Below, piece after piece: positions 37,001-40,000 of a stretch of 64,000 nucleotides of DNA. How positions within the stretch are numbered: position 1 is the first letter of the stretch; each line of letters opens with the position of its first letter. The position numbers were made by a program, and so were the translations under genes. This DNA comes from the human T2T-CHM13v2.0 reference genome, Homo sapiens, in the NCBI RefSeq assembly GCF_009914755.1, contig NC_060926.1. One strand, written 5' to 3'. Below the pieces are notes generated by a model. The model was not told where the DNA came from. It did not search any database and saw nothing but the letters and a program-made list of their open reading frames with translations.

Positions 37001-40000
37001 TGGGTACATAACGAAATGAAGGCAGAAATAAAGACATTATTTGAAACCAGTGAGAACAAAGACACAACATACCAGAATCTCTGGGACACATTTAAAGCAG
37101 TGTGTAGAGGGAAATTTATAGCACTAAATGCCCATAGGAGAAAGCAGGAAAGATCTAAAATTGACCCCCTAACATCACAATTAAAAGAACTAGAGAAGCA
37201 AGAGCAAACACATTCAAAAGCTAGCAGAAGGCAAGAAATAACTAAGATCAGAGCAGAACTGAAGGAGATAGAGACACAAAAAACCCTTCAAAAAATCAAT
37301 GAATCCAGGAGCTGGTTTTTTGAAAAGATCAACAAAATTGATAGACTGCTAGCAAGACTAATAAAGAAGAAAAGAAAGAAGAATCAAATAGATGCAATAA
37401 AAAATGATAAAGGAGATATCACCACCAATCCCACAGAAATACAAACTACCATCAGAGAATACTATAAACACCTCTATGCAAATAAACTAGAAAATCTAGA
37501 AGAAATGGATAAATTCCTGGACACATAAACCCTCCCAAGACTAAACCAGGAAGAAGCTGAATCCCTGAATAGACCAATAACAAGCTCTGAAACTGAGGCA
37601 ATAATTAAGAGCCTACCAACAAAAAAAAGTCCAGGACCAGACGGATTCACAGCCAAATTCTACCAGAGGTACAAAGAGGAGCTGGTACCATTCCTTCTGA
37701 AACTATTCCAATCAATAGAAAAAGAGGGAATCCTCCCTAACTCATTTTATGAGGCCAGCATCTTCCTGACACCAAAGCCTGGCAGAGACACAACAAAAAA
37801 AGAGAATTTTAGACCAATATCCCTGGTGAACATCGATGTAAAAATCCTCAATAAAATACTGGCAAACTGAATCCAGCAGCACATCAGAAAGCTTATCCAC
37901 CATGATCAAGTGGGCTTCATCCCTGGGATGCAAGGCTGGTTCAACATACACAAATCAATAAACATAATCCATCATATAAACAGAACCAATGACAAAAACC
38001 ACATGATTATCTCAATAGATGCAGAAAAGGCCTTCGAAAAATTCAACAGCCCTTCGTGCTAAAACCTCTCAATAAATAAGGTATTGATGGGATGTATCTC
38101 AAAATAATAAGAGCTATTTATGACAGACCCACAGCCAATATCATACTGAATGGGCAAAAACTGGAAGCATTCCCTTTGAAAACTGGCAGAAGACAGGGAT
38201 GCCCTCTCTCACCACTCCTATTCAACATAGTGTTGGAAGTTCTGGCCAGGGCAATCAGGCAGGAGAAAGAAATAGAGGGTATTCAATTAGGAAAAGAGGA
38301 AGTCAAATTGTCCCTGTTTGCAGATGAAATGATTGTATATTTAGAAAACCCCATCATCTCAGCCCAAAATCTCCTTAAGCTGATAAGCAACTTCAGCAGT
38401 CTCAGGATACAACATCAATGTTCAAAAATCACAAGCATTCCTATATACCAACAATAGATGAGCAGAGAGCCACATCATGAGTGAACTCCCATTCACGATT
38501 GCTATAAAGAGAATAAAATACCTAGGAATACAACTTACAAGGGACGTGAAGGACTTCCTCAAGGAGAACTACAAACCACTGCTCAGGAAAGAAGAGAGGA
38601 CACAAACAAGTGGAAAAAAATTCCATGCTCATGGATAGGGAGAATCAGATCACGAAAATGGCCATACTGCCCAAAGTAATGTATAGAGTCAATGCCATCC
38701 CCATCAAGCTACCAATGACTTTCTTCACAGAATTGGAAAAAACTACTTTAAAGTTCATATGGAACCAAAAAAGAGCCCGCATCGCCAAGTCAATCCTAAG
38801 CCAAAAGAACAAAGCTGGAGGCGTCGCGCTACTGTACTACAAGGCTACAGGAACCAAAACAGCATGGTACTGGTACCAAAACAGAGATATAGACCAATGG
38901 AACAGAACAGAGCCCTCAGAATAATACCACACATCTACAACCATCTGATCTTTGACAAGCCTGACAAAAACAAGAAATGGGGAAAGGATTCCCTATTTAG
39001 CAAATGGTGCTGGGAAAACTGGCTAGCCATATGTAGAAAGCTGAAATTGGATCCCTTCCTTACACCTTACACAAAAATTAATTCCAGATAGAGTAAAGAC
39101 TTAAATGTTTGACCTAAAACCATAAAAACCCTAGAAGAAAACCTAGGCAATACCATTCAGGACATAGGCATGGGCAAGGACTTCATGTCTAAAATACCAA
39201 AAGCAATGGTAACAAAAGCCAAAATTGACAGATAGGATCTAATTAAACTAAAGAGCTTCTGCACAGCAAAAGAAACCACCATCAGAGTGAACAGGCAACC
39301 TAAAGAATGGGAGAAAATTTTTACAATCTACCCATCTGATAAAGGGCTAATATCCAGAATCTACAAAGAACTTAAACAAATTTATAAGAAAAATCAAACA
39401 ACCTCATAAAAAACTGGGCAAAGGATATGAACAGACACTTCTCCAAAGAAGACATTTATGCAGCCAAAAGACACATGAAAAAATGCTCATCATCACTGGT
39501 CATCAGAGAAATGCAAATCAAAACCACAATGAGATACCATCTCACACCAGTTAGAATGGACATCATTAAAAAGTCAGGAAACAACAGGTGCTGGAGAGGA
39601 TGTGGAGAAATAGGAACATTTTTACACTGTTGGTGGGACTGTAAACTAGTTCAACCATTGTGGAAGACAGTGTGGCGATTCTTCAAGGATCTAGAACTAG
39701 AAATACCATTTGACCCAACATCCCATTACTGAGTATATACCCAAAGGATTATAAATCATGCTGCTATAAAGACACATGCACATGTATGTTTATTTTGGCA
39801 CTATTCACAATAGCAAAGACTTGGAACCAACCCAAATGTCCATCAATGATAGACTGGATTAAGAAAATGTGGCACATATACACCATGGAATACTATGCAG
39901 CCATAAAAAAGGATGAGTTCATGTCCTTTGTAGGGACATGGATGAAGCTGGAAACCATCATTGTGAGCAAACTATCGCAAGGACAGAAAACCAAACATTG

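What the first reader, a model, noticed from the sequence alone, without database searches (positions are those of the whole stretch)
38422..38688. Gene-conversion tract copied from the L1PA8-like into the L1PA5-like element 17.5 kb away
Seen: 38422-38688 is near-identical to 20931-21196 (about 9 differences by eye) and both share changes versus the L1 consensus as I recall it: GTTCAAAA, AATAGATGAGCAG, GCTATAAAG, GGACTTCCTCAAG, GCTCAGGAAAGAAG (1-nt deletion), CAAACAAGTGG, GGATAGGGAGAATCAGATC (1-nt deletion), GTATAGAG. Outside the tract the younger L1 reverts to young-type bases (ATGCCATCCCC, CCAATGACT). Shared frameshifts cannot come from active source elements. Reciprocal CpG decay (CATGTC vs CACATC) shows both diverged from one ancestor. 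Inference: non-allelic gene conversion between direct-orientation L1s, also marking the pair as an NAHR substrate for a ~17 kb deletion/duplication.
Basis: partly seen in the sequence, partly recalled or inferred. Interest (0 to 1): 0.7.

Follow-up and report, generated by a model that had tools for sequence, protein, structure and literature searches.

The report
L1 patched from two neighbouring copies
A dead LINE-1 repeat in an intron of human PDE11A shares one short patch with an older LINE-1 17.5 kb away and a second patch with a LINE-1 inside the titin gene 600 kb away, likely left by ancient DNA repair between copies, a known process with no sign of any effect here.

Summary
Observation confirmed. 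The two same-strand L1s (A 17274-22781, B 34096-40254) differ at about 10% of sites but at only 8 of 267 in the tract. They share 8 rare substitutions and two 1-nt deletions there; a 20-mer over one deletion occurs only in A and B genome-wide. B carries A-lineage bases at 8 of 8 lineage-marking sites inside and 0 of 19 outside, so the direction is A to B. New here: about 130 bp downstream, B has a second tract (38823-39239) shared with the L1 in titin's PEVK tandem repeat 602 kb away: 9 differences in 417, 9 rare shared substitutions and two shared deletions. Its direction is unresolved. Trees pair B with A in tract 1 and with the titin L1 in tract 2. Best reading: ancient non-crossover, non-allelic gene conversion, a known process. 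Not supported: the claim that the pair is an NAHR substrate (90% identity, longest perfect run 87 bp). Reciprocal CpG decay is not required. Subfamily names and ape orthologues could not be tested.

The parts
17274..22781 (+). L1 element A: older lineage, lacking about 660 bp of the 5' end relative to B; donor of tract 1; coding frames broken
   Evidence: Self-BLAST alignment with B; nearest genomic copies 91% over 21200-22000; groups with older copies in the flank tree; longest open frame 142 codons
20931..21196 (+). Tract 1, donor copy in A (maximum 20928-21203)
34083..34095 (+). 5' target-site duplication of B (13 bp)
   Evidence: the same 13-mer lies at 40255-40267
34096..40254 (+). L1 element B: apparently full-length, younger lineage, mosaic; coding frames broken
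   Evidence: nearest genomic copies 95% over 39310-40080
38422..38688 (+). Tract 1, acceptor copy in B (maximum 38419-38695), copied from A
   Evidence: 8 differences in 267; 8 rare shared substitutions and 2 shared 1-nt deletions; 8 of 8 lineage sites A-type
38696..38783 (+). Spacer in B's own younger lineage between the two tracts (up to 38822)
   Evidence: B has younger-lineage bases at the marking sites 38696-38802 and differs from the titin L1 at 6 sites in 38700-38783
38823..39239 (+). Tract 2 (maximum 38784-39270), shared with the L1 in the TTN PEVK tandem repeat at G000:C2:179138764-179139250 and its copy 4261 bp further on; direction unresolved
   Evidence: 9 differences in 417; 9 rare shared substitutions; shared deletions of 12 nt in total at 38831-38834 and of 1 nt at 38919
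40255..40267 (+). 3' target-site duplication of B

Best explanation
L1 copy B is a mosaic: 267 bp of it match the older L1 A 17.5 kb away and about 420 bp match the L1 inside titin 602 kb away, most likely through ancient non-crossover gene conversion between same-strand copies in the germ line. Shown: both local identity peaks, the private variants shared in each, the A-to-B direction of tract 1, and a target-site duplication on both sides of B. Inferred: a break or nick in B was repaired by strand invasion of A, 270-280 bp of synthesis and re-annealing (an SDSA-type route). A similar event joined B and the titin L1, in a direction not resolved. Inferred dates, using a recalled rate near 1e-9 per site per year: tract 1 about 15 Myr (6-30), tract 2 about 11 Myr (5-20). 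The two cannot be told apart (p=0.62), and two separate events are the default. Both products are likely neutral intronic footprints.
For: Tract 1: 8 of 267 differences against 10.4%; best genomic match 97% against 92%; rare shared variants 8 of 271 against 2 of 2889; a motif found only in A and B; lineage switch 8 of 8 against 0 of 19; A+B 100/100 in the tract tree while they fall in separate clades in the flank tree. Tract 2: the titin copies are the best match, 98% against 96%; 9 rare shared substitutions within 420 bp, where none of 54 other copies shares more than 3 with B; B+C1 100/99. Eleven other candidate copies, picked for sharing the deletion junction (2), the GC dinucleotide (6) or a high score (3), lack the haplotype. 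Negative control: the 95% A/B peak in ORF1 is only a conserved region, and A is not among its 40 best matches. The target-site duplication on both sides of B shows no net crossover. Precedent: PMC6598467, PMC8230782, and PMC3924843 citing break repair of a LINE by conversion from other L1s.
Against: Only one genome was examined; no ape orthologue shows B before conversion. Tract 1 divergence (95% interval 1.3-5.9%) overlaps what B's insertion age would give: 2 B-lineage changes seen against 5.7 expected, P=0.08. A's tract is more diverged than its flanks (16 of 270 against 100 of 2875 rare changes, p=0.06; stem 0.062 plus tip 0.029 against 0.053), which a third, older donor would also give. 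90% identity is low for mammalian homologous recombination, and 17.5 kb and 602 kb exceed the 10 kb range of elevated conversion reported for Alus. The genome searches scored only 40 candidates each.
Confidence: 0.82

Rival explanations
1. Tract 1 arose when B inserted: the reverse transcriptase or the nascent cDNA switched to the nearby A sequence and back, so B was born chimeric. (Chimeric L1 integration is recalled from cell-culture work, not read here.)
For: The upper limit of tract 1 divergence (5.9%) covers B's age; the deficit of B-lineage changes is only P=0.08; A lies close by.
Against: It needs two switches inside an otherwise full-length element with a clean target-site duplication. 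The point estimates favour a later date. It cannot explain tract 2, whose shared rare variants had to arise after one of the two partners inserted.
Confidence: 0.07
2. Two successive unequal crossovers (a duplication and then a deletion) left the A segment in B, with no conversion.
For: The end product is the same; the elements are in direct orientation.
Against: It needs two rare crossovers within 280 bp at 90% identity, below the roughly 96% threshold. For tract 2 it would need a transient 600-kb rearrangement.
Confidence: 0.03
3. A third, older L1, now lost or unscored, donated the tract 1 segment to A and then to B, or to both.
For: A is over-diverged in the tract (p=0.06).
Against: No copy above 92% was found; A keeps its own lineage bases at 8 of 8 sites. 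It remains gene conversion, with one more step.
Confidence: 0.05
4. The shared bases are traits of minor source lineages, chance, or an assembly artefact.
For: Some listed changes are common among older copies. The GC dinucleotide of tract 2 occurs at 7 other places, and a similar deletion junction at 2.
Against: Those copies lack the rest of the haplotype: 6 of the 7 dinucleotide copies and both junction copies were fetched. The flanks of B and A belong to different clades. Permutation p is about 0.001-0.002. A collapse or mis-polish would give near-zero differences, not 8 and 9.
Confidence: 0.03

Closest known systems
Non-allelic gene conversion between transposable-element copies (Alu, LTR), reviewed in PMC6598467; Alu survey PMC8230782
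   Same: Local identity peak, mosaic of lineage-marking bases, partial replacement, an old copy donating to a young one (12 such Alu cases), different parts of one copy matching different partners, and repeated conversion at one locus (3 Alu cases).
   Different: Here the copies are L1 ORF2 regions, 17.5 kb and 602 kb apart, beyond the 10 kb range reported for Alus, and both partners are identified by private variants.
Repair of a break in a chromosomal LINE by conversion from endogenous L1s (Tremblay et al. 2000, seen only as cited in PMC3924843)
   Same: L1-to-L1 templated repair leaving a patch from another copy.
   Different: That work used an induced break in mouse cells and favoured active elements as donors; this is a fixed-looking germ-line fossil with a dead, local donor.
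Repair-mediated duplication by SDSA (Pace et al., PMC2671141)
   Same: Capture of nearby chromosomal DNA in pieces of a few hundred bases; 20 acceptors were chimeras of two donors.
   Different: Those are insertions with microhomology, mostly from under 5 kb; here homologous sequence is replaced in register.
LINE-LINE NAHR (Startek et al., PMC4344489; Balachandran et al., PMC9675761)
   Same: Directly oriented L1PA-type pair on one chromosome.
   Different: No crossover, deletion or duplication is seen, and the pair's identity is below the enriched range.

Membership tests
Non-allelic gene conversion tract (tract 1, A/B) | Local identity peak between paralogues beyond chance | tested here: met
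   8 of 267 against 10.4%; 45 and 25 of 20000 shuffles
Non-allelic gene conversion tract (tract 1, A/B) | Shared variants private to the pair, not lineage traits | tested here: met
Non-allelic gene conversion tract (tract 1, A/B) | One-way transfer, the acceptor reverting on both sides | tested here: met
   8 of 8 against 0 of 19 (outside sites counted in 38696-39279); younger-type bases at 38262-38313 upstream
Non-allelic gene conversion tract (tract 1, A/B) | No exchange of flanking markers | tested here: met
   B keeps the same 13-bp target-site duplication at both ends; no clear duplication was found for A
Non-allelic gene conversion tract (tract 1, A/B) | Happened after both insertions | tested here: inconclusive
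   2 B-lineage changes against 5.7 expected, P=0.08
Non-allelic gene conversion tract (both tracts) | Unconverted state seen at the orthologous site in an outgroup species | not testable with these tools
   No primate genomes other than the window's own are held
Non-allelic gene conversion tract (tract 2, B/titin L1) | Local identity peak and private shared variants | tested here: met
   9 of 417 against 6.9%; 3 and 39 of 20000 shuffles; 9 rare substitutions and 2 deletions
Non-allelic gene conversion tract (tract 2, B/titin L1) | Direction of transfer | tested here: inconclusive
   Rare-variant load favours titin as donor (B 16 of 448 against 38 of 2441, p=0.007; titin copy unchanged, p=0.88). 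Four of five lineage sites and the tree placement lean to B as donor, but the titin copy is also B-like at 38601 and 38635 outside the tract
LINE-LINE NAHR substrate | Direct orientation on one chromosome, under 10 Mb apart | tested here: met
LINE-LINE NAHR substrate | About 96% identity or more over the homology | tested here: not met
   A/B about 90%, longest perfect run 87 bp; B/titin 92.6%, longest run 129 bp; threshold from PMC4344489
LINE-LINE NAHR substrate | Observed deletions or duplications with breakpoints in the pair | not testable with these tools
   No variant database is held; paper listings showed none by title or abstract start
L1PA8 (A) and L1PA5 (B) subfamilies | Best match to the named subfamily consensus | not testable with these tools
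   No repeat library; only relative age is shown

The most novel reading that the evidence does not exclude
One repair event in B copied from two templates in turn, the L1 17.5 kb upstream and the titin-repeat L1 602 kb downstream, leaving two tracts about 130 bp apart: a fossil of multi-template homologous repair in the primate germ line at only 90-93% identity, and evidence that the PDE11A and titin PEVK introns have recombined.
Probability: 0.17. Interest if true: 0.6.

Novelty: new member of a known kind. Interest (0 to 1): 0.33.

Why it matters
Conversion between repeat copies is documented for Alus and LTRs; in my searches, named L1-to-L1 cases with identified partners were scarce. This locus gives two, with dates testable in ape genomes. 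It shows that dead L1s exchange sequence at about 90% identity, over 17 kb and 600 kb, which can distort subfamily calls and age estimates. It suggests a cheap genome-wide screen: ask whether the best match of a rare-variant cluster is a chromosomal neighbour. No effect on PDE11A or TTN is indicated: tract 1 is intronic and no annotated exon lies between A and B. A crossover between B and the titin L1 would remove about 600 kb, predicted to include the 3' part of TTN, but nothing here shows that this happens.

Tried and rejected
(1) Subfamily trait: rejected for the rare variants and deletions; accepted for several of the listed bases. (2) A second A/B tract at the 95% ORF1 peak (35860-36120): rejected; A is not among the 40 best matches, which reach 97-98%. 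(3) A minor source lineage behind tract 2: 2 deletion-junction copies, 3 next-best copies and 6 of 7 dinucleotide copies were fetched; none carries the haplotype. (4) One long exchange between B and the titin L1 over the whole 5' part of that copy: rejected; no rare shared variant in 37872-38822, and the titin copy lacks tract 1. (5) A third tract from a young L1 in the spacer: B is 96-100% identical to the 28 younger copies over 38691-38822 against 92-96% to 7 lineage-matched ones, but the younger set was selected with a query containing the spacer; not established. (6) Direction of tract 2 from three lines of evidence: contradictory. (7) Reciprocal CpG decay: not required. (8) A target-site duplication for A: only poly-A matches. 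(9) Khan et al. 2006 and Tremblay et al. 2000 could not be read; PMC2603318 has no mention of gene conversion. (10) No paper on this locus or pair appeared in the listings of ten searches; subscription journals and supplements were not searched.

Full report
Setting. The window lies in introns of PDE11A (minus strand; annotation supplied with the task). A self-comparison finds two long L1 elements on the plus strand: A (17274-22781) and B. B runs from 34096 to 40254 between two copies of a 13-bp target-site duplication. Both have broken reading frames. Over 4485 columns they differ at 10.0%. In a tree of the flanks, A groups with older copies and B with younger ones (100/99 and 97/95 support). 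Their nearest genomic relatives are 91% and 95% identical. PMC2671141 (passages) places L1PA7/8/8A at 30-42 Myr and L1PA4-6 at 18-30 Myr, which would fit.

Observation. B 38422-38688 and A 20931-21196 differ at 8 of 267 columns, against 10.4% elsewhere; 45 and 25 of 20000 shuffles match the best segment score. The peak is the highest in the alignment. A is the best genomic match, 97% against 92%, among 40 scored of 3529 candidates. I compared 54 other copies: 28 picked with a query that included the flanks and 26 picked with the tract itself, which inflates their sharing and so is conservative. Of 60 loci fetched, 6 were dropped (4 self, 1 duplicate, 1 not aligned over the tract). A and B share 17 non-majority bases inside and 7 outside. 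Of these and one further site, 8 against 2 are rare (p=1e-7). The two shared 1-nt deletions occur in 1 of 64 and 0 of 64 other copies. Motifs across them match exactly only A and B in the whole genome.

Direction of tract 1. I fetched 10 copies closest to B in its 3' flank (4-5 cover the tract, up to 10 cover the rest) and chose 10 older copies close to A. At sites that separate the two sets, B has the A-type base at 8 of 8 inside the tract and 0 of 19 outside (p=5e-7). The tract tree joins A and B at 100/100 among the older copies (bootstrap not fully settled). So A gave and B received. The limits are 38419-38695 at most.

A second tract. Searching with B's sequence just downstream, the best matches were two copies 4261 bp apart at chr2:179.139 and 179.143 Mb. 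That region is a 99.7% tandem repeat with PEVK-type exons on the minus strand. It fits the TTN segmental duplication, a nine-exon block repeated three times (PMC9142044, passages); the gene name rests on those exons and the position, not on an annotation call. The two titin L1 copies differ at 1 site in about 2.4 kb. B and this L1 differ at 9 of 417 columns over 38823-39239, against 6.9% elsewhere; 3 and 39 of 20000 shuffles reach the score. They share 9 rare substitutions, deletions of 12 nt in total and a 1-nt deletion found in 1 of 70 other copies. None of the 54 other copies shares more than 3 rare bases with B in any 420 bp. A shorter query again ranks the titin copies first, 98% against 96%, and the tree joins them at 100/99. 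Against this reading, a similar deletion junction occurs at 2 other places and the shared dinucleotide at 7. I fetched both junction copies, 6 of the 7 dinucleotide copies and 3 next-best copies; none has the haplotype. The direction is unresolved. B's rare-variant load rises in the tract to the titin copy's level (16 of 448 against 38 of 2441, p=0.007), pointing to titin as donor. Four of five lineage sites and the tree placement point to B, but the titin copy is also B-like just upstream. The titin copy lacks tract 1.

Mechanism. Shown: two patches, the private variants, one direction, and intact ends of B. Inferred: non-crossover homologous repair of an SDSA type, using a copy on the same chromosome. 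Tract divergences are 3.0% (1.3-5.9) and 2.2% (1.0-4.1) and cannot be told apart (p=0.62). With a recalled rate near 1e-9 per site per year they give about 15 and 11 Myr. Tract 2 must postdate the insertion of at least its donor, because the shared rare variants had to accumulate first. For tract 1 the evidence for a date after B's insertion is weak (P=0.08), so formation at insertion remains a rival. A is over-diverged in tract 1 (p=0.06), which I cannot explain. That both partners are chromosomal neighbours, out of thousands of candidate copies, argues for a local DNA-templated process.

Reciprocal CpG decay at 38473-38474 is not needed: other copies have A at both sites. The NAHR claim is weak. 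Startek et al. (PMC4344489, passages) found enrichment only from about 96% identity, while allowing that short, more identical sub-fragments may act. A/B has about 90% and a longest perfect run of 87 bp; B/titin has 92.6% and 129 bp. An A/B deletion would remove no annotated exon, only RNU6-629P and a RefSeq enhancer at 34417-34917. The 95% peak in ORF1 served as a negative control: it is a conserved region where A is not among the best 40.

Comparison with what is known. Conversion between repeat copies is established: PMC6598467 (parts 1-2 of 4 read), PMC8230782 (passages), PMC8232201 (passages). For L1, repair of an induced break from other L1 copies is cited in PMC3924843 (passages); the original was not held. 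Two-donor acceptors are reported for repair-mediated duplications (PMC2671141). PMC9675761 (passages) covers crossover products and does not mention PDE11A in its main text. Ten searches (listings only) showed no report of this locus; subscription papers and supplements were not seen and could list it.

Verdict. A real, well-supported new instance of a known process, with an added second tract that ties the element to titin's PEVK repeat. No function is indicated. Interest 0.33. The single-event, two-template reading has a probability of about 0.17, and ape orthologues can test it.

Noticed in passing
L061 (G000:C2:179136500-179145500): Titin PEVK tandem repeat with a 4261-bp unit at 99.7% identity; a 5'-truncated 2.4-kb L1 is present in two units, and the two copies differ at 1 site.
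   Followed up: partly
L061:1352-3731: The titin L1 itself looks mosaic: B-like in lineage sites over its 5' 1.4 kb, younger-type 3' of about B position 39300, close to the end of tract 2. It also has many A-to-G changes on the plus strand (17 of 52 rare changes).
   Followed up: partly
window 38691-38822: The spacer between the tracts is 100% identical to 6 of 28 younger copies and keeps its CpGs; it may be chance, query bias or a third patch.
   Followed up: partly
window 20931-21196: Element A is more diverged in tract 1 than in its flanks (p=0.06); 10 of its 16 rare changes there are A/T to G/C.
   Followed up: partly
window 38823: One rare base (1 of 53 other copies) is shared by A, B and the titin L1; in A it sits among several local changes and is probably coincidence.
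   Followed up: no
window 34417-34917: The RefSeq enhancer lies within the 5' UTR region of L1 B (annotation supplied).
   Followed up: no
window 32878-33017 and 33943-34082: A 140-bp direct duplication at 85% identity about 1 kb apart, ending just before B's target-site duplication; also a 36-bp match between 33885-33920 and 40257-40292 on opposite strands.
   Followed up: no
window 23635-24297: The U6 pseudogene RNU6-629P (23635-23736) directly abuts an old L1 3' fragment (23738-24297), the layout of a U6/L1 chimeric insertion (with the annotation).
   Followed up: no
window 36200-37525: B keeps a 442-codon open stretch at the start of its ORF2 region, before the first break.
   Followed up: no
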